Source: Dehalococcoidia bacterium (lineage in GTDB: Bacteria > Chloroflexota > Dehalococcoidia > Lucifugimonadales > UBA1127). From it: a stretch of DNA of 64,000 nucleotides. This document shows, piece after piece, positions 6,235-45,400 of the stretch. The notes below the pieces were generated by a model, which had not been told where the DNA came from, ran no database searches, and was given only the letters and a program-made list of their open reading frames with translations. The stretch spans positions 17,632-81,631 of the forward strand of contig DAOUJQ010000013.1 in the NCBI GenBank assembly GCA_034422455.1, in the 5' to 3' direction. Position numbers and translations under genes: made by a program. Position 1 is the stretch's first letter, and each line of letters starts with the position of its first letter.

Positions 6235-6309
6235 TGGAGCGGGCGATGGGAGTTGAACCCACGACAACCTGCTTGGAAGGCAGGGGCTCTGCCGCTGAGC
6301 TACGCCCGC
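6235..6309 (-). tRNA. tRNA-Gly (anticodon UCC), CCA encoded
   Basis: The reverse complement reads GCGGGCGTAGCTCAGCGGCAGAGCCCCTGCCTTCCAAGCAGGTTGTCGTGGGTTCAACTCCCATCGCCCGCTCCA. It has a cloverleaf, anticodon loop CTTCCAA and T-loop GGTTCAACTCC. Confidence 0.92.
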
Positions 6310-10070: not shown

Positions 10071-11342
10071 TCACGATTGAGGCTGGAAGCGGGCCTGCAG
10101 GTGCTCGACGTGGTGGCGCTCCTCCGTGCACTCCGCGACGGAGAGCTCCACCTGGATCGTCACGTGGTTGAGCCCGTGGCTGTACACGATCTTCCGGAGC
10201 TGCTTCAGTATGTCCTCCTGGCGTCCGGCCTGGGTGGGGCTCACGAAGACGTGGGCCGTGAAGGCGTCGTAGCCGGAGGTGATGGTCCAGGCGTGGACGT
10301 CGTGGACCAGCGTCACGCCCTGCACGTCCTCCATCTCGCTGCAGATGTTGTAGATGTCCACGGTCTCCGGCGTGCCCTCCAGCAATACCTTGAACACCCG
10401 CATGAACAGGCCCCAGGAGACCTTGAGGATGAGCAGGCCGATGAGGACGCTCATGATGGGGTCGGCGATGTACCAGGTCGAATTGTCGTCGGCGAACGCA
10501 ACGATCAGGATGCCGGAAATGATGACGCCGACGGAGCCCATGAGGTCCGCCATGACGTGCTGGAAGGCGCCCTCCACGTTGAGGCTCTCTCCCGCCGCCC
10601 GGTGCAGCACCCACGCCGCGGCGATGTTGATGATGAGGCCGATGACGCCGACGCTGAACATCAGCGGGCCCTCGACCTCCGGCGTGTCGGAGAAGCGGTG
10701 GTAGGCCTCCAGGAAGATCCACCCGGCGATGAGCCACAGGCTCACGGTGTTGGCGAGCGCGGCAAGCACCTCCGTCCGGTAGAAGCCGAAGGTCGAACCC
10801 GCCACGGCCGGCCGGTTGGCGATCCACATGGCGAACAGCGCCAGCGCGATGGAGGCGGCGTCGGTCAACATGTGCGCGGCGTCCGCCAGCAGCGCGAGGC
10901 TGCCGGAGAGGATGCCGCCGACGACCTCCACGAACATGAACCCGCCAATGAGGACGAGCGCCAAAATCAGGCTCTTCTTGCTGGCCCCGCGCAGGTCATG
11001 GGCATGGTCATGGCCGCCGTGCCCATGGTGATGGTGACCGTGGCCCGCGTGGGCGTGGTCATGCTCATCGTGGTCGTGGTCCTCATGCTCGTGGTCGTGG
11101 TCATGCTCGTGGTCGTGCTCCGTGTGGTCGTGCCCCGCGTGGTCGTGGGCATGGTCATGCTCATGGTCGTGGCCCGCGTGGTCGTGGGCATGGTCATGCT
11201 CGTGATCGTGCCCCGCGTGGTCGTGCCCTTCATGGTCGTGAGCATGGTCGTGGTCGTGCTCCGCGTGGTCATGGTCGTGGCCCGCGTGGTCGTGGGCATG
11301 GTCATGCTCGTGATCATGGTCATGCCGGTGTTCAGTCGTCAC
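10071..11342 (-). CDS. Cation diffusion facilitator (CzcD/ZitB-like) transporter with a very long His/Asp-rich N-terminus
   Basis: ORF track, 423 aa, GTG start with GGGAAGGGATGG upstream. The C-terminal ~300 aa has the CDF pattern ([16 protein letters not shown]...[13 protein letters not shown]...). The first ~115 aa are HDHxH repeats. Confidence 0.9.
11031..11340 (-). repeat. Coding tandem repeat (His/Asp tract of the CDF gene)
   Basis: The core GCGTGGTCGTGGGCATGGTCATGCT recurs at about 11137, 11176 (39-nt period, or 13 aa: [13 protein letters not shown]) and 11284. Confidence 0.7.
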
Positions 11343-11447: not shown

Positions 11448-11705
11448 CTAGACTGCGTGGGCAACGTGGTGCGGGTCGTCTGCCGCCGCGCAGTGCTCGC
11501 CGCCGTGCTCGTGGCAGTGGATGTGGCCGTGCTCGTCCATGTCCTCCGGGCCCATGATGGCCTGGCAGGCCGCGTCGCCGTGGATGTGGCAGTGGCCGGC
11601 GCCGTGCTCGTGGCAGTGGACGCCGTCATGGGCGTGGCAATGCTCGCCTGCATGCTCGTGACAGTGGTCGTCATGCTCGTGACTGTGGTCGTGCGCTTCC
11701 GCCAT
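11448..11705 (-). CDS. Small His/Cys-rich putative metal-binding protein (HCH repeats)
   Basis: ORF track, 85 aa with 25 His and 7 Cys by my count. The motif HCH(E/A/I)H occurs five times. RBS is AAGGAGGGG. It lies directly upstream of the CDF gene on the same strand. Confidence 0.7.
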   Translation of the reverse strand: MAEAHDHSHEHDDHCHEHAGEHCHAHDGVHCHEHGAGHCHIHGDAACQAIMGPEDMDEHGHIHCHEHGGEHCAAADDPHHVAHAV

Positions 11706-12133: not shown

Positions 12134-13534
12134 ATGAAACAGAACAGGCCATCGTTCCGGGCCACGGCCCGATGGTCCGCGCTCCTGGCGCTTGCCGCCG
12201 CCCTCGGCGTGCTGGCGGCCGCCGCGTGCGGCCCAACCGACGACGCGACCGAGCCCTCGTCGTCACAGGAGGCCGCCGGGACCACGGAGACGTCCGGCAG
12301 CGACGCGACGACGGCCACGACGGACGCCGCCCCGAAACCGAGCGTCGAAGTCGGCCACGCCGTCGGGATGATGGCCCCGGACTTCACCGCGGAGACGGTG
12401 GCGGGCGACTCGATCACCCTGTCGGAGGTGACCGCGGGATCGCCGGTCCTCCTCTACTTCTTCACGACGTGGTGACCGACGTGCAATGCCGAGTTTCGGC
12501 ATCTGCGGTCGCTCTACCCCGGCTACCAGGACGACGTCGCCCTCATCGGCGTCGGCGTCGACCCAAGCGAGTCAGCCGACAAAATCTCGAGATGGGCCGA
12601 AAGGAACGGCTTTGATTGGCCCCTCACGGAAGCGGTCGGCAGCGCCCTGACCGACTACCGCGTGACGCAGCAATCCGCAGCCGTCGGCATCGACGCGGAC
12701 GGCATCATCGTGCTCCGCAAGAACGGCGGCCTCCAGGGCGAGGGCAAGTGGACGGAGTGGCTGGACACCCTGGGCGGTCCAAGGACTTCCGCGGAGCTGG
12801 AGGCTCCCTCCACCGCCGCCCAGGCGGCCCCGGCTCCCGTGGAAGCCGTCCCGACGCAGGCGCCAGCGCCGAGCCAGCCTTCGCCAACGGCCGCGCCCGC
12901 GCCCACAACAGCTCCGCCTCCTGCGGCTACGGCAGCTCCGGCCCCGACCACGGGCCCAGCGCCGACGGCAGCGCCTCCCCCGACGGCAATCCCAGCCCCG
13001 ACACAGGCGCCGCCTCCACCCCCAACGGCAACACCACGGCCCCGCCCGACATCGACGCCGACCCCCGCGCCAACGGCGACGCCGAACATTCCTGTCGGCC
13101 ACAACATCGGCCAGCGGGCGCCGGACTTCACCGTGACGGCGGTGAGCGGGGAGACGATCACGCTGTCCGAGGTTACGGCAACCGGCAAGCCCGTCCTCAT
13201 CTACTTCTTCGCGACATGGTGACCGACCTGCAATGCGGAGTTGCCGCATCTGCAGGGCCTCTACTCAGCCAATAGCGATGACGTGTTGATCGTGGGCATC
13301 AGCACGGACCCGGGCGACTCCGAGTCCCGCGTCCGAAGCCACGCCCGCAACAGGGGGATAACGTTCCCGATGGCGCCGCACGACCGCAGCATCGTGATCG
13401 ACTCCTACCGGGTGAGCGCGCAGTCCAGCGCCGTCGGCATCGACGCGAACGGGGTCATCCGGCTCCGCAAGGGCTACGGGCTGCAGGACGGGAACGAGTG
13501 GCGGAACTGGGTGGAGACGCTGACGGGCAGCTAG
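12134..13534 (+). CDS. Tandem two-domain TlpA/ResA-like thioredoxin-fold lipoprotein with two in-frame UGA (predicted selenocysteine) codons
   Basis: ORFs 11984-12475, 12662-13222 and 13241-13534 share one frame and are separated only by TGA at 12473 and 13220. The TGAs sit in YFFTTW-U-PTC and YFFATW-U-PTC, the redox CxxC position. A SECIS-like hairpin follows each. The signal peptide ends in a lipobox-like LAAAAC after ATG 12134. Confidence 0.75.
12482..12507 (+). promoter_or_regulatory. Bacterial SECIS-like hairpin 1
   Basis: Upper stem ATGCCGA (12486-12492) pairs with TCGGCAT (12496-12502) around loop GTT. Lower stem is TGCA/TGCG with a C bulge. The upper stem starts 10 nt after the TGA. 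Confidence 0.7.
13228..13255 (+). promoter_or_regulatory. Bacterial SECIS-like hairpin 2
   Basis: Upper stem ATGCGG (13233-13238) pairs with CCGCAT (13244-13249) around loop AGTTG. Lower stem is CTGCA/TGCAG with a C bulge. The spacer after the TGA is 10 nt. The stem differs from hairpin 1 by compensatory changes. Confidence 0.7.
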
Positions 13535-33592: not shown

Positions 33593-34264
33593 ATGTCAGA
33601 ATGGCTGGGCCGCGAGTACAACTACGCCGTGTGGCGGCCGTCGCAGGCCGAGTTCCAGCTGCTGAAGGAGATCCACCACGCGGGCGACGTCGCCCCCGAC
33701 TTCACGCTGCCCCTCCTCGACGGCGGCGAGCTGAGCCTCTCCGACCTGAAGGGCAAGCCCGTCGTCATCGAGTTCGGCTCCATCACCTGACCGCCATGCC
33801 AGGGGGAGTTCCCCCTCATGGACCAGCTGGCCCGCGACTACGCCGACCGCGCCCACTTTCTCTTCGTCTACGTGCGTGAGGCCCACCCGGACGACTTCCC
33901 GCAGTGGCCGGAGCACAAGACCATCAAGCAGAAGTTCGAGCAGGCGCGCCTCATGCGGGAGCGCCACGGCACGCCGCGCACCATCGTGGTCGACGACGTG
34001 GAGGGCACGGTGCACCGGGCGTGGAGCGGCATGCCCAACATGAGCTGGATCATCGACCACACCGGCCGCGTGTTCTTCAAAGCGGGGTGGACGGTGGAGT
34101 CCGACCTGCGCGCCGGACTGGAGGACTACTTCGACCTGAGGGAGCGCATGCGGGAGGGCTCGACGGCGCGCTACTACAAGGAGTACATCACCGCCACGCC
34201 GCGGATGCGCGAGGGCGGTGGCATGATGCGGCCGCAGCGCGAGCCCGCGGAGACCGGCGGGTAA
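33593..34264 (+). CDS. Deiodinase-like (DIO/Prx-like thioredoxin-fold) protein with one in-frame UGA (predicted selenocysteine)
   Basis: ORFs 33374-33790 and 33818-34264 share a frame across TGA 33788-33790. ATG 33593 follows AAGGAGGG. The motif VVIEFGSIT-U-PPC ... FLFVYVREAHPDD resembles the iodothyronine deiodinase active site FGSxTUPPF. A SECIS-like hairpin follows. Confidence 0.75.
33794..33821 (+). promoter_or_regulatory. Bacterial SECIS-like hairpin 3
   Basis: Upper stem AGGGGG (33801-33806) pairs with CCCCCT (33811-33816) around loop AGTT. Lower stem is CCATG/CATGG with a CC bulge. The spacer after the TGA is 10 nt. Confidence 0.7.
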
Positions 34265-34293
34265 GCCAACATACCTGCCAAGGCGGAAGAAAC

Positions 34294-34331
34294 CCCCGTT
34301 CGTCCTGAGGGAAATCGCAGGGTGAACGGGG
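34294..34331. repeat. Module A, reverse orientation
   Basis: CCCCGTTCGTCCTGAGGGAAATCGCAGGGTGAACGGGG. Confidence 0.8.
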
Positions 34332-34362
34332 GTTTTGCACTGTGCGTGAGGGAGAGGTTGCC

Positions 34363-34680
34363 CTATCCGGCGTGAGAGGAATCCCCATGATTGGGTTGAG
34401 CGCCCTGCTCACTATCCACCAGCCGCCCCGACAGATACCTGTGGACAACGTTAGAAAGCAGCGCCTGGCAGGAAACGCCCTCCTCCCTCGCCCTGGAATG
34501 CGCGAGTTGGAAGTCGCGCTCCGAAACCCGCAACTGTAGCCGCTTGCTCCTGGAGAGGGTGTTACGGGCCTTCTGCCTGGCATCCTCAATTTCCCGCTCC
34601 ATGTCGGGCACCGGGCGCAGTTCCCCTCTCTCGAATCGCTTCAATATATCGCGCTCCTCAGCGTCAAGCATCTCTTTCAC
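34363..34680 (-). CDS. brnA: BrnA-like (CopG/RHH) antitoxin
   Basis: ORF track, 105 aa, GTG start. KRLQLRVSERDFQLAHSRAREEGVSCQALLSNVVHRYLSGRL matches the BrnA ribbon-helix-helix C-terminus. Confidence 0.65.
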   Translation of the reverse strand: MKEMLDAEERDILKRFERGELRPVPDMEREIEDARQKARNTLSRSKRLQLRVSERDFQLAHSRAREEGVSCQALLSNVVHRYLSGRLVDSEQGAQPNHGDSSHAG

Positions 34681-34682
34681 GT

Positions 34683-34964
34683 TTACCCTCTCCGCCGATA
34701 GGTCCTGGTCGCTTTCCGGCTTGGAATGATCGTCTTCAGAAAACTTGTGCCGTCAGACTGTGCAACGAAGGGCACTAGATACAGGTACTCGTCAATCTCT
34801 ACGACATAGATTCGCTGGCCCGGATACCGTTCAGGGTTGGGATGGTCCAGCACCTCCAGCAAGCGACCCTCTTCTATGGCAGAGACAATCCTCCCAAATG
34901 AGATTCCCCGCTGTTCAATGAGCTGTCTATCTTTTGGCGTGCTCCACTCGAAGCCAGGAGGCAT
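34683..34964 (-). CDS. brnT: BrnT-like (DUF497) toxin
   Basis: ORF track, 93 aa. Contains FEWSTPKDRQLIEQRGISF...IIPSRKATRTY, a DUF497-like pattern. The toxin-first order and 2-nt gap to the antitoxin match brnTA operons. Confidence 0.6.
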   Translation of the reverse strand: MPPGFEWSTPKDRQLIEQRGISFGRIVSAIEEGRLLEVLDHPNPERYPGQRIYVVEIDEYLYLVPFVAQSDGTSFLKTIIPSRKATRTYRRRG

Positions 34965-44986: not shown

Positions 44987-45008
44987 TGCGCTGTTCTCAG
45001 GCGAAAGG

Positions 45009-45400
45009 GGCCGGTGGGCCTGTAAGCCGAGTTCTGTCCCCGGCCGCCATCAGTTTACGCCCCGTCGCCGGGACTTCCTCCTCATGCGCAGCCGGGTGGC
45101 GGCCATCCCTCTAGCCCTGCCGTTGCCGGCAGGGTCGTGCGGCCAACCCGGGGGCGAGCCGGGCGCTCATGGCCCCCCTATTTGGCCTTGCTCCGGGTGG
45201 GGCTTGCCCGCCGCCGTGTCACCACGGTCGGCCGGGAGCTCTTGCCTCCCGATTTCACCCTTACTCCGGCGGACCGGAGCGGTATGTTTCTGTGGCGCTT
45301 TCCGTCGGGTTGCCCCGCCTGGGCGTTACCCAGCACCCTGCCCGGAGGAGCTCGGACTTTCCTCTCCGACGAATCGGAGCGGCCACCCGGCCCACCGGCC
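45009..45400 (-). ncRNA. rnpB: RNase P RNA (bacterial type A)
   Basis: The minus strand contains GAGAGGAAAGTCCGAGCTCC (P4 5' half), GGAGTAAGGGTGAAA and ACAGAACTCGGCTTA (P4 3' half). P1 forms between GGCCGGTGGGCC (5' end, complement of 45389-45400) and GGCCCACCGGCC (3' end, complement of 45009-45020). Confidence 0.88.

What the first reader, a model, noticed from the sequence alone, without database searches (positions are those of the whole stretch)
33593..34264. Deiodinase-like thioredoxin-fold gene with an in-frame UGA in a TUPPC motif
ORFs 33374-33790 and 33818-34264 share a frame across TGA 33788-33790. Read through from ATG 33593 (RBS AAGGAGGG), the product contains KGKPVVIEFGSIT-U-PPCQGEF...AHFLFVYVREAHPDD. 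This closely mirrors the iodothyronine deiodinase active-site block (FGSxTUPPF ... IYIxEAHxxDGW). The sequence before the TGA is only the N-terminal half of a thioredoxin fold and the sequence after it supplies the rest. A hairpin follows the TGA at the same spacing as at the two sites in 12134-13534. This is a second, unrelated selenoprotein candidate in the window.
Basis: partly seen in the sequence, partly recalled or inferred. Interest (0 to 1): 0.72.

Follow-up and report, generated by a model that had tools for sequence, protein, structure and literature searches.

The report
Bacterial deiodinase-like selenoprotein gene
This is one intact gene for a deiodinase-like redox enzyme whose internal TGA "stop" almost certainly encodes selenocysteine; the call is correct, but the selenoprotein family has been known from marine bacteria since 2005.

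Summary
ATG 33593 (RBS AAGGAGGG) opens a 223-codon frame with one in-frame TGA (33788-33790) and stop TAA 34262-34264. With U read as C, the product passes Pfam T4_deiodinase (61.4 bits, cutoff 27). Its best solved relatives are mouse Dio3 and Dio2.

- In 56 distinct homologous loci (marine Dehalococcoidia/SAR202, Ktedonobacteria, Acidimicrobiia, Rokubacteria) the same codon is TGA. In 17 Terriglobia loci it is TGT or TGC.
- Both halves are equally conserved, and gene callers everywhere split the gene into 65 + ~148 aa.
- A hairpin 13 nt after the UGA covaries (81.6% paired, 0/500 shuffles). It has a near-invariant G in a 3-4 nt loop and is absent from the Cys forms, so it behaves as a bacterial SECIS.
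- A full-length Cys homolog folds as one thioredoxin-fold domain across the site.
- Sec forms carry UxxC; Cys forms carry CxxT.

This matches the "deiodinase-like protein, PF00837, UxxC" family of Zhang, Fomenko and Gladyshev (2005).

Sec machinery is not in the window and could not be inventoried genome-wide. The substrate is unknown.

Verdict: a real selenoprotein gene, correctly interpreted, and a new member of a known kind, so interest is low to moderate.

The parts
33581..33588 (+). Shine-Dalgarno-like AAGGAGGG, 4 nt upstream of the start codon
   Evidence: Read directly from the sequence. Gene callers on orthologous contigs start the 65-aa ORF at the equivalent ATG.
33593..34264 (+). Complete coding sequence of the deiodinase-like selenoprotein: 223 codons including Sec66, stop TAA
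   Evidence: Translation; Pfam PF00837 61.4 bits vs cutoff 27; full-length alignment to Cys homolog P0003 starting MALWFGREYNF vs MSEWLGREYNY; both halves conserved in about 80 loci.
33788..33790 (+). In-frame TGA, proposed Sec66 codon (catalytic residue, equivalent to Dio2 Sec130)
   Evidence: TGA in 56 distinct homologous loci and TGT/TGC in 17. It aligns with the Sec-to-Cys position of the Dio3 and Dio2 crystal constructs.
33797..33799 (+). TGC, Cys69: the +3 partner of Sec66 (UxxC redox motif)
   Evidence: Cys at +3 in 55 of 56 Sec forms; Thr at +3 in 17 of 17 Cys forms. The motif is listed as UxxC for this family in PMC13188914 and PMC9312934.
33794..33821 (+). Bacterial SECIS-type hairpin inside the ORF. 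Lower stem 33794-33798/33817-33821, 2-nt bulge, upper stem 33801-33806/33811-33816, loop AGUU 33807-33810. The family consensus helix is 33801-33807/33811-33817.
   Evidence: MFE fold. RNAalifold consensus: 6 of 7 pairs show compensatory changes. 81.6% of cells paired vs 61.6% in shuffles, covariation 0.514 vs 0.157, 0/500 shuffles as high, and slid controls 38-57%. Loop G (alignment column 21) is present in 55/56 Sec loci. Pairing averages 6.3/7 in Sec loci vs 2.6/7 in Cys loci.
33869..33889 (+). Y93-V-R-E96-A-H98-P: the deiodinase YxxEAHP block (Dio2 Tyr157, Glu160, His162)
   Evidence: Ungapped HMMER alignment to Dio2 and Dio3. These columns are invariant in alignment A1. Their role as a proton relay is taken from PMC11592359.
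33914..33916 (+). His108 codon, aligned with the second conserved deiodinase His (PQH in Dio3; Dio2 His182)
   Evidence: alignment (PEH vs PQH); invariant in A1. The loop between H98 and H108 is 7 residues shorter than in Dio3.
34289..34336 (+). Long, near-perfect hairpin 25 nt after the stop codon, ending in UUUU; possible terminator (function not shown)
   Evidence: Fold -37.6 kcal/mol, z -3.41. The simple terminator scan did not flag it because its loop and stem fall outside the scan's pattern.

Best explanation
Window 33593-34264 is one gene, not two. It encodes a 223-residue, probably cytoplasmic, deiodinase-like thioredoxin-fold selenoprotein (Pfam PF00837).

UGA 33788-33790 is decoded as selenocysteine (Sec66). 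The in-ORF hairpin 13 nt downstream (33801-33817, with a small G-containing loop) acts as a bacterial SECIS, which would recruit SelB with Sec-tRNA(Sec) to the ribosome.

Sec66 sits at the N-terminus of helix alpha1, directly after strand beta1 (FGSIT-U-PPC). With Cys69 it forms a UxxC redox pair. The likely chemistry is as follows:
1. The selenolate attacks an oxidised or halogenated substrate.
2. The resulting Se-X intermediate is resolved by Cys69 to an intramolecular selenenylsulfide.
3. A thiol reductant such as thioredoxin regenerates the enzyme.

The deiodinase hydrogen-bond and proton-relay residues (Ser63, Thr65, Tyr93, Glu96, His98, His108) are retained.

Shown here: the gene structure, the Sec/Cys pairing across homologs, hairpin covariation, a single-domain fold, and family membership. 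Inferred: actual Sec insertion, the selenenylsulfide cycle, cytoplasmic location, and the substrate.
For: - Frame and motif.
- Family: PF00837 at 61.4 bits against a cutoff of 27. Dio3 and Dio2 are the best PDB sequence hits and the best structural hits to the model of Cys homolog P0003.
- Sec/Cys pair: TGA in 56 distinct loci across several phyla, TGT/TGC in 17 Terriglobia loci, plus the full-length Cys protein P0003.
- Conservation on both sides of the TGA is equal. For example, at about 50% divergence the N-terminal part is 60% identical and the C-terminal part 51%.
- About 70 database homologs are 130-165-aa fragments starting at the first Met after the TGA. This is the signature of gene callers stopping at a Sec codon. 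Orthologous contigs show the same 65 + 148 aa split.
- SECIS: covariation; G in the loop in 55/56 Sec loci; the hairpin is absent from Cys forms.
- Two further UGA sites in an independent Trx-like gene of the same window have the same hairpin. A model built from the deiodinase-like sites finds them at ranks 4 and 5 of 128 kb searched.
- TGA is not a general sense codon here. Only the 13220 and 33788 sites show coding-like sequence on both sides of a TGA.
- The family is described in the literature with the same motif.
Against: - No selA, selB, selD or tRNA-Sec is in the 64-kb window or in the fetched loci, and the genome could not be inventoried.
- The hairpin at this site alone is not more stable than shuffled sequence (z -0.43).
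- Part of the hairpin's conservation is forced by conserved codons (Glu71, Pro74).
- No Rfam SECIS model matches.
- No biochemical data exist for any bacterial member, so the catalytic cycle and substrate are inference.
Confidence: 0.88

Rival explanations
1. Two separate genes or a pseudogene. The TGA would be a true stop, giving a 65-aa N-terminal peptide, with an independently initiated 148-aa protein from ATG 33818. Alternatively, it would be a dead gene.
For: This is how automatic gene callers annotate it everywhere. Met76 is conserved in most Sec-form homologs. No Sec machinery was seen in the window.
Against: - The TGA is conserved at the identical codon in 56 distinct loci down to about 37% protein identity, with both flanks under equal constraint and always in frame. 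A pseudogene would not behave this way.
- Cys homologs are single continuous proteins.
- The model shows strand beta1 (before the site) and helix alpha1 (after it) belonging to one domain. Neither fragment would be a complete fold, and the catalytic residue would be missing.
- The 27-nt gap between the two ORFs encodes the conserved PPCQGEFPL segment.
Confidence: 0.04
2. UGA is recoded, but not as selenocysteine. It would be read as Trp, Gly or Cys through an altered genetic code or near-cognate read-through.
For: The stop-codon usage of the window is unusual for a 67% GC genome: TAG 25, TGA 7, TAA 6. This could hint at pressure against TGA stops.
Against: - Only two to three TGAs in 64 kb have coding sequence on both sides. 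All sit at the redox-active position of thioredoxin-fold U-P-x-C motifs and are followed by the same hairpin. A reassigned codon would be scattered through many genes.
- The homologous residue is always Cys, never Trp or Gly.
- The covarying hairpin with a conserved loop G is the SelB-type signal.
Confidence: 0.03
3. A rival at the level of function. The enzyme would be a genuine reductive dehalogenase (aryl deiodinase or debrominase acting on marine organohalogens), not a general thiol/peroxide oxidoreductase.
For: - All six deiodinase hydrogen-bond and proton-relay residues are kept.
- Deiodinases are the closest solved relatives by both sequence and structure.
- The peroxiredoxin-type conserved Arg is not in the aligned position. 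This is my reading of the alignment, not a computed test.
- Several host MAGs come from sponges or open ocean, where halogenated aromatics occur (record titles).
Against: - The substrate-clamp residue Dio3 Arg275 aligns with Met150.
- Loop D, which covers the substrate in deiodinases, is 7-10 residues shorter and lacks the conserved Trp.
- The +3 Phe of animal deiodinases is replaced by Cys, giving a classical UxxC dithiol-type motif.
- ResA/TlpA-type thiol-disulfide oxidoreductases score nearly as well structurally.
- The discoverers of the family proposed a generic redox role.
- Cys-form genes in Terriglobia neighbour DsbA-like and peroxiredoxin-like genes.
Confidence: 0.12

Closest known systems
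Prokaryotic deiodinase-like selenoprotein family (Zhang, Fomenko & Gladyshev 2005, Sargasso Sea; GOS 2008; listed as 'Deiodinase-like protein, PF00837, UxxC' in the 2022 and 2026 reviews)
   Same: - PF00837 homology.
- An in-frame UGA aligned with Cys in homologs.
- A UxxC motif.
- A bacterial-type SECIS with a small G-containing apical loop just downstream of the UGA.
- Marine origin.
- Sec and Cys forms both exist.

   Different: Nothing essential differs. This is an additional, unannotated member in a marine Dehalococcoidia (SAR202-related) genome.

The points below are detail added here that I did not find in the passages I read. They are not a departure from the family.
- Sec forms are the rule across dozens of Dehalococcoidia MAGs, sometimes as two paralogs.
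- Sec pairs with Cys at +3, while Cys forms have Thr at +3.
Animal iodothyronine deiodinases Dio1-3 (structures 4tr3, 9h48)
   Same: - Thioredoxin/peroxiredoxin-like fold.
- An FGSxT-U-PP active-site strand-helix junction.
- A YxxEAHP block and a second conserved His, which together are the proton-relay residues.
- Sec as the catalytic residue.

   Different: - No N-terminal membrane anchor.
- Loop D / the Dio insertion is 7-10 residues shorter and lacks the conserved Trp.
- The +3 residue is Cys rather than Phe.
- The position aligned with Dio3 Arg275 is Met.
- The SECIS is a bacterial in-ORF hairpin, not a 3'-UTR kink-turn element.
- Thyroid hormones are not an expected substrate.
TlpA/ResA/DsbE-type thiol-disulfide oxidoreductases and their Sec-containing 'thiol-disulfide isomerase-like' relatives (such as the 12134-13534 gene in this window)
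   Same: Same fold superfamily, with the redox motif (C/U)xxC at the start of helix alpha1. Structural scores are nearly equal to those of the deiodinases. The SECIS shape and spacing are the same.
   Different: Those proteins are secreted or lipid-anchored and have WCxxC-type motifs. They lack the YxxEAHP...H block. Here PF00837 outscores AhpC-TSA/Redoxin (61 vs 47 and 41 bits).
NCBIfam NF038285 'deiodinase family protein' (hypothetical equivalog, 347 positions)
   Same: Local similarity over the catalytic domain (106.9 bits).
   Different: The score is far below the model's cutoff of 250, and the match covers only profile positions 177-325. This protein is not a member of that equivalog.

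Membership tests
Prokaryotic deiodinase-like selenoprotein (PF00837, UxxC) | Significant match to Pfam T4_deiodinase | tested here: met
   61.4 bits against a gathering cutoff of 27, E 1e-16, covering residues 11-165.
Prokaryotic deiodinase-like selenoprotein (PF00837, UxxC) | In-frame UGA at the catalytic position, aligned with Cys in homologs | tested here: met
   TGA in 56 distinct loci and TGT/TGC in 17; P0003 has FGSLTCPNC.
Prokaryotic deiodinase-like selenoprotein (PF00837, UxxC) | UxxC redox motif | tested here: met
   U66-P-P-C69 in the window; Cys at +3 in 55/56 Sec forms.
Prokaryotic deiodinase-like selenoprotein (PF00837, UxxC) | Host genome has Sec machinery (selA, selB, selD, tRNA-Sec) | not testable with these tools
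The only evidence is indirect: three UGA/hairpin sites in two genes of this window, and Sec-containing formate dehydrogenases reported in other marine Dehalococcoidia.
Bacterial SECIS element | Stem-loop directly downstream of the UGA, within the ORF, with a small apical loop about 16-37 nt from the UGA that carries a conserved G. Criteria are as summarised in PMC1088965 and from my knowledge of bSECISearch. | tested here: met
   The helix starts 13 nt after the U of UGA. In the window's own fold the loop AGUU (33807-33810) begins 16 nt after the UGA; in the family consensus the 3-nt loop (33808-33810) begins 17 nt after it. G at alignment column 21 in 55/56 loci.
Bacterial SECIS element | The structure is maintained by compensatory changes | tested here: met
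   6 of 7 pairs show double changes; covariation 0.514 vs 0.157 in shuffles (0/500); slid controls at most 0.21. Caveat: related sequences and codon constraints inflate such scores.
Bacterial SECIS element | Binds SelB and directs Se-dependent read-through | not testable with these tools
   This needs an experiment.
Iodothyronine deiodinase (animal Dio1-3) | Catalytic Sec in FGSxT-U-PP, plus the Ser/Thr/Tyr/Glu/His/His relay | tested here: met
   S63, T65, U66, Y93, E96 and H98 align ungapped with Dio2 S127, T129, Sec130, Y157, E160 and H162. H108 aligns with the PQH His of Dio3.
Iodothyronine deiodinase (animal Dio1-3) | Full-length Dio insertion / loop D with its conserved Trp, and the substrate clamp (Dio3 Arg275) | tested here: not met
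   A 7-residue deletion relative to Dio3 lies between H98 and H108. P103 sits at the Trp position and M150 at the Arg275 position (alignment; residue roles).
Iodothyronine deiodinase (animal Dio1-3) | N-terminal transmembrane anchor | tested here: not met
   The N-terminus MSEWLGREYNYAVWRPSQAEFQLLKEIHHAG has no hydrophobic segment (by inspection).
Iodothyronine deiodinase (animal Dio1-3) | Reductive deiodination activity | not testable with these tools
   This needs a biochemical assay.
NCBIfam NF038285 deiodinase_rel | Score at or above the curated cutoff | tested here: not met
   106.9 bits against a cutoff of 250, with a partial profile match.

The most novel reading that the evidence does not exclude
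The Sec-dependent deiodinase-like enzymes that are near-universal in marine SAR202-type Dehalococcoidia could be true corrinoid-independent reductive dehalogenases. They would act on natural iodo- or bromo-aromatics such as halophenols and halotyrosine derivatives from seawater and sponges. If so, deiodinase chemistry would predate thyroid signalling, and this class of bacteria would have a second, unrecognised route to dehalogenation. The evidence does not exclude this: the full deiodinase proton relay is conserved. It does not favour it over a generic UxxC thiol/peroxide oxidoreductase role.
Probability: 0.1. Interest if true: 0.72.

Novelty: new member of a known kind. Interest (0 to 1): 0.27.

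Why it matters
The practical point is annotation. In every related genome and metagenome examined, this gene is split into a 65-aa and a ~148-aa 'hypothetical protein'. The selenoproteome of marine Dehalococcoidia is therefore systematically under-called.

With the two-Sec thioredoxin-like gene at 12134-13534, the window shows that this organism invests in selenium-based redox enzymes.

Scientifically, the bacterial deiodinase-like family remains uncharacterised biochemically. Retention of the whole deiodinase relay alongside a UxxC motif makes it a tractable model for how deiodinase chemistry evolved from peroxiredoxin- or thioredoxin-like ancestors. The existence of the family, its motif and its SECIS are not new.

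Tried and rejected
- **Structure prediction of the window's own product.** I modelled the full-length Cys homolog P0003 instead, with both window halves as rows of the alignment.
- **Rfam.** No SECIS family matched at gathering thresholds over the window, or at E <= 10 over 33750-33880. Only chance-level hits appeared.
- **Promoter and terminator scan.** No + strand promoter-like site lies upstream of the gene and no terminator was called. The long hairpin after the stop was found only by folding.
- **Search for Sec machinery.** For a 64-kb window this says nothing about the genome.
- **Other hits of the SECIS covariance model.** 40716-40688 (-) is out of frame with its ORF by my own arithmetic. 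48559 (+) lies in short intergenic sequence after a stop. Both were rejected as Sec sites.
- **Neighbourhood analysis for a conserved partner.** A Gfo/Idh/MocA oxidoreductase neighbours the gene in 23 loci of two clades, but in different arrangements and from a large paralogous family. The ORF calling was noisy in this high-GC DNA. I draw no functional link.
- **Altered genetic code.** Considered and rejected.
- **Literature.** No paper describing deiodinase-like selenoproteins specifically in Chloroflexi/SAR202, and no biochemical characterisation of a bacterial member, was found.

Full report
**1. Observation**

The coordinates are exact.
- AAGGAGGG lies at 33581-33588 and ATG at 33593.
- There is a single in-frame TGA at 33788-33790, and the stop is TAA at 34262-34264.
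- The two mechanical ORFs, 33374-33790 and 33818-34264, share a frame.
- The read-through product is 223 residues and contains ...KGKPVVIEFGSIT-U-PPCQGEFPLMDQLARDYADRAHFLFVYVREAHPDDFPQWPEH...

A hairpin follows the TGA. Its lower stem is 33794-33798/33817-33821, its upper stem 33801-33806/33811-33816, and its loop is AGUU. On its own this hairpin is not more stable than shuffled sequence in this 67% GC window (z -0.43 to -1.08). The single-sequence observation is therefore real but not significant without comparative data.

**2. What the protein is**

With U replaced by C, the product passes the Pfam gathering threshold for T4_deiodinase (PF00837: 61.4 bits, cutoff 27). Weaker AhpC-TSA and Redoxin hits follow.

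NCBIfam's 'deiodinase_rel' model NF038285 matches only locally and far below its cutoff (106.9 vs 250). The protein is not that equivalog.

The best solved relatives by sequence are mouse Dio3 (4tr3, E 2.6e-11) and Dio2 (9h48, E 1.4e-10). The Dio2 alignment is ungapped from FGSxT(U/C)PP through YxxEAHP. It places S63, T65, U66, Y93, E96 and H98 on Dio2 S127, T129, Sec130, Y157, E160 and H162. The Dio3 alignment places H108 (PEH) on the PQH histidine.

These are the residues described as the deiodinase proton-relay and hydrogen-bond network (PMC11592359). They are invariant in my family alignment.

Differences from animal deiodinases:
- The loop between H98 and H108 (loop D / the Dio insertion) is 7 residues shorter than in Dio3 and lacks the conserved Trp.
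- The Dio3 Arg275 position is Met150.
- The +3 residue is Cys instead of Phe.
- There is no N-terminal membrane anchor.

**3. One gene or two**

A search of 5.8 billion predicted proteins returned about 70 homologs of 130-165 aa that begin at the first Met after the TGA (MDQ...). It also returned a few full-length proteins.

P0003 (237 aa, 49% identical over 97% of the query) reads FGSLTCPNCQ, so it has Cys at the U position. Orthologous Tara Oceans and other contigs show the same 65-aa + 148/149-aa split in the same gene neighbourhood: IspH, a Gfo/Idh/MocA oxidoreductase, the split gene, a luciferase-like monooxygenase, and an MFS transporter.

A scan of one genome per species found 271 genomes encoding a relative, of which 79 loci were fetched. 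The host of the window is evidently a marine Dehalococcoidia (Chloroflexota) close to MAGs OZ220679.1, OX638292.1 and sponge-derived bins (93-96% identity). More distant copies occur in SAR202 bins.

In every locus where the motif was found, I read the codon at the U position.
- 56 distinct sequences have TGA. They come from Dehalococcoidia/SAR202, Ktedonobacteria, Acidimicrobiia, Rokubacteria and others.
- 17 sequences, all Terriglobia, have TGT or TGC.

The 65 residues before the TGA and the 134 after it are conserved to the same degree at every level of divergence. Examples are 97% and 91%, 60% and 51%, and 41% and 42%. This is incompatible with a pseudogene, or with a real stop followed by an unrelated gene.

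AlphaFold2 on the Cys homolog, with both window halves in the alignment, gives one confident domain (mean pLDDT 83.7; above 90 for residues 40-200). Strand beta1 (residues 71-76) ends just before the Cys, and helix alpha1 (residues 81-96) starts at the CxxC. Foldseek against the PDB ranks Dio3 first and Dio2 fourth (TM 0.76 on the target, rmsd 2.3 Å). ResA/TlpA-type oxidoreductases score close behind.

The tool did not accept the window's own read-through product, so the fold evidence is by proxy.

**4. The recoding signal**

I aligned 40 distinct 48-nt segments anchored on the UGA (ungapped).

RNAalifold predicts a 7-bp helix at columns 14-20/24-30, which is window 33801-33807/33811-33817, with a 3-nt loop. 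Six of the seven pairs show compensatory double changes.

For the 8-pair version of the helix:
- 81.6% of cells are paired, against 61.6% in column shuffles (0/500 reach the observed value).
- The covariation score is 0.514, against 0.157 in shuffles.
- Sliding the 3' partner by 1-3 columns drops pairing to 38-57%.

The first loop base (column 21) is G in 55 of 56 Sec loci. Sec loci form 6.3 of the 7 pairs on average, while the Cys loci form 2.6.

Some of this conservation is imposed by conserved codons (Glu71 GAG, Pro74 CCN), and relatedness inflates shuffle statistics. However, the outer pairs switch among AU, UA, CG and GC along with different amino acids.

The helix position, small loop and loop G fit the bacterial SECIS description used by the discoverers of this family (PMC1088965). 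No Rfam model matches.

The two in-frame TGAs of the tandem thioredoxin-like gene at 12134-13534 (FFTTW-U-PTC and FFATW-U-PTC) carry hairpins of the same shape and spacing (z -3.3 and -2.9). A covariance model trained only on the deiodinase-like sites recovers them, starting exactly at their UGAs, as hits 4 and 5 in the whole window (E 0.18 and 0.25).

TGA is not a general sense codon. A scan for TGAs with coding-like composition on both sides returned only 13220 and 33788.

**5. Mechanism**

*Shown:* a single gene; a UGA that alternates with Cys codons in homologs; a covarying SECIS-type hairpin; a thioredoxin/deiodinase fold with the U at the N-terminus of helix alpha1; and a UxxC motif in 55/56 Sec forms, whereas all 17 Cys forms have CxxT.

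*Inferred:*
- SelB with Sec-tRNA(Sec) is recruited by the hairpin and inserts Sec66.
- The selenolate attacks the substrate.
- Cys69 resolves the Se-X intermediate to a selenenylsulfide.
- A thiol system reduces the selenenylsulfide.
- The protein is cytoplasmic, since the N-terminus has no signal-peptide-like segment.

The substrate is unknown. The conserved deiodinase relay leaves reductive dehalogenation open. The UxxC motif, the shortened loop D, the missing Arg clamp and the near-equal structural similarity to ResA/TlpA favour a generic thiol/peroxide redox role. That is also what the family's discoverers suggested. Cys-form genes in Terriglobia neighbour DsbA-like and peroxiredoxin-like genes, a redox context (noisy ORF calling).

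**6. Comparison with what is known**

Deiodinase-like selenoproteins with bacterial SECIS elements, together with Cys homologs, were reported from the Sargasso Sea in 2005 (4 Sec sequences, Pfam00837). They were found again in the GOS data (22 Sec, 21 Cys). The 2022 and 2026 reviews of prokaryotic selenoproteomes list them as 'Deiodinase-like protein, PF00837, UxxC'.

The window's gene meets every sequence-level criterion of that family. I found no paper assigning the family to SAR202/Dehalococcoidia, and none characterising a bacterial member biochemically.

**7. What remains open**

The Sec machinery is open. No tRNA-Sec and no selA/B/D-like sequence (with approximate probes) is present in the window or the fetched flanks.

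Indirect support is limited to two things:
- Three UGA/SECIS sites in two genes of this window, conserved across many MAGs.
- Literature reports of Sec-containing formate dehydrogenases in other marine Dehalococcoidia, and of SelA and SelB in sponge symbiont bins.

**8. Verdict**

The feature is a real but already-known kind of selenoprotein gene, mis-annotated as two ORFs in public data. It is a new member of a known family, of low-to-moderate interest. Its residual value is as an uncharacterised enzyme family that keeps the deiodinase catalytic relay.

Noticed in passing
window 12134-13534 (+), TGAs at 12473-12475 and 13220-13222: A secreted or lipoprotein-like protein has two tandem thioredoxin-fold (AhpC-TSA/Redoxin) domains joined by a Pro/Ala/Thr-rich linker. 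Each domain has an in-frame TGA in a W-U-P-T-C motif followed by a SECIS-type hairpin (z -3.3 and -2.9). It is probably a two-Sec 'thiol-disulfide isomerase-like' selenoprotein.
   Followed up: partly
whole window (38 long coding-like ORFs): Stop-codon usage is dominated by TAG (25 TAG, 7 TGA, 6 TAA) in a 67% GC genome, where TGA is usually the commonest stop. This may reflect avoidance of TGA stops in a Sec-decoding organism, or it may be a lineage trait. The count comes from crude ORF calling.
   Followed up: no
window 34363-34964 (-): Two small genes sit between the selenoprotein gene and the luciferase-like monooxygenase. One is a weak BrnT-toxin match (27.8 bits, below cutoff); the other is a 104-aa ORF with no Pfam hit. 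Orthologous contigs L001 and L003 lack them, and there the monooxygenase gene follows directly. This looks like an inserted toxin-antitoxin module.
   Followed up: partly
window 34289-34336 (+): A 48-nt near-perfect hairpin (-37.6 kcal/mol, z -3.4) lies just after the stop codon and ends in UUUU. It may be a terminator or the edge of the inserted toxin-antitoxin module.
   Followed up: partly
loci L015/L047 (OZ253478.1), L025/L049 (QEVV01000003.1), L016/L028 (CAZPYZ01): Several Dehalococcoidia/SAR202 genomes carry two diverged deiodinase-like paralogs, each with the TGA and the hairpin.
   Followed up: no
loci L057-L084 (Terriglobia): The Cys forms have CxxT rather than CxxC. They extend about 238 residues beyond the Cys, with a C-terminal hydrophobic segment. 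They are often flanked by DsbA-like and peroxiredoxin-like genes. By contrast, Sec forms almost always have Cys at +3.
   Followed up: partly
window 10071-11342 (-) and 11448-11705 (-): A cation-diffusion-facilitator-like transporter has an extremely His/Asp-rich N-terminal repeat ([11 protein letters not shown]...). An adjacent 85-aa His/Cys-rich ORF lies just upstream of the two-Sec thioredoxin-like gene. Together they look like a metal-handling cluster.
   Followed up: no
window 45007-45398 (-) and 6235-6309 (-): Bacterial RNase P RNA class A (254.5 bits) and tRNA-Gly(UCC). These are the only Rfam/ARAGORN RNA genes in the window.
   Followed up: no
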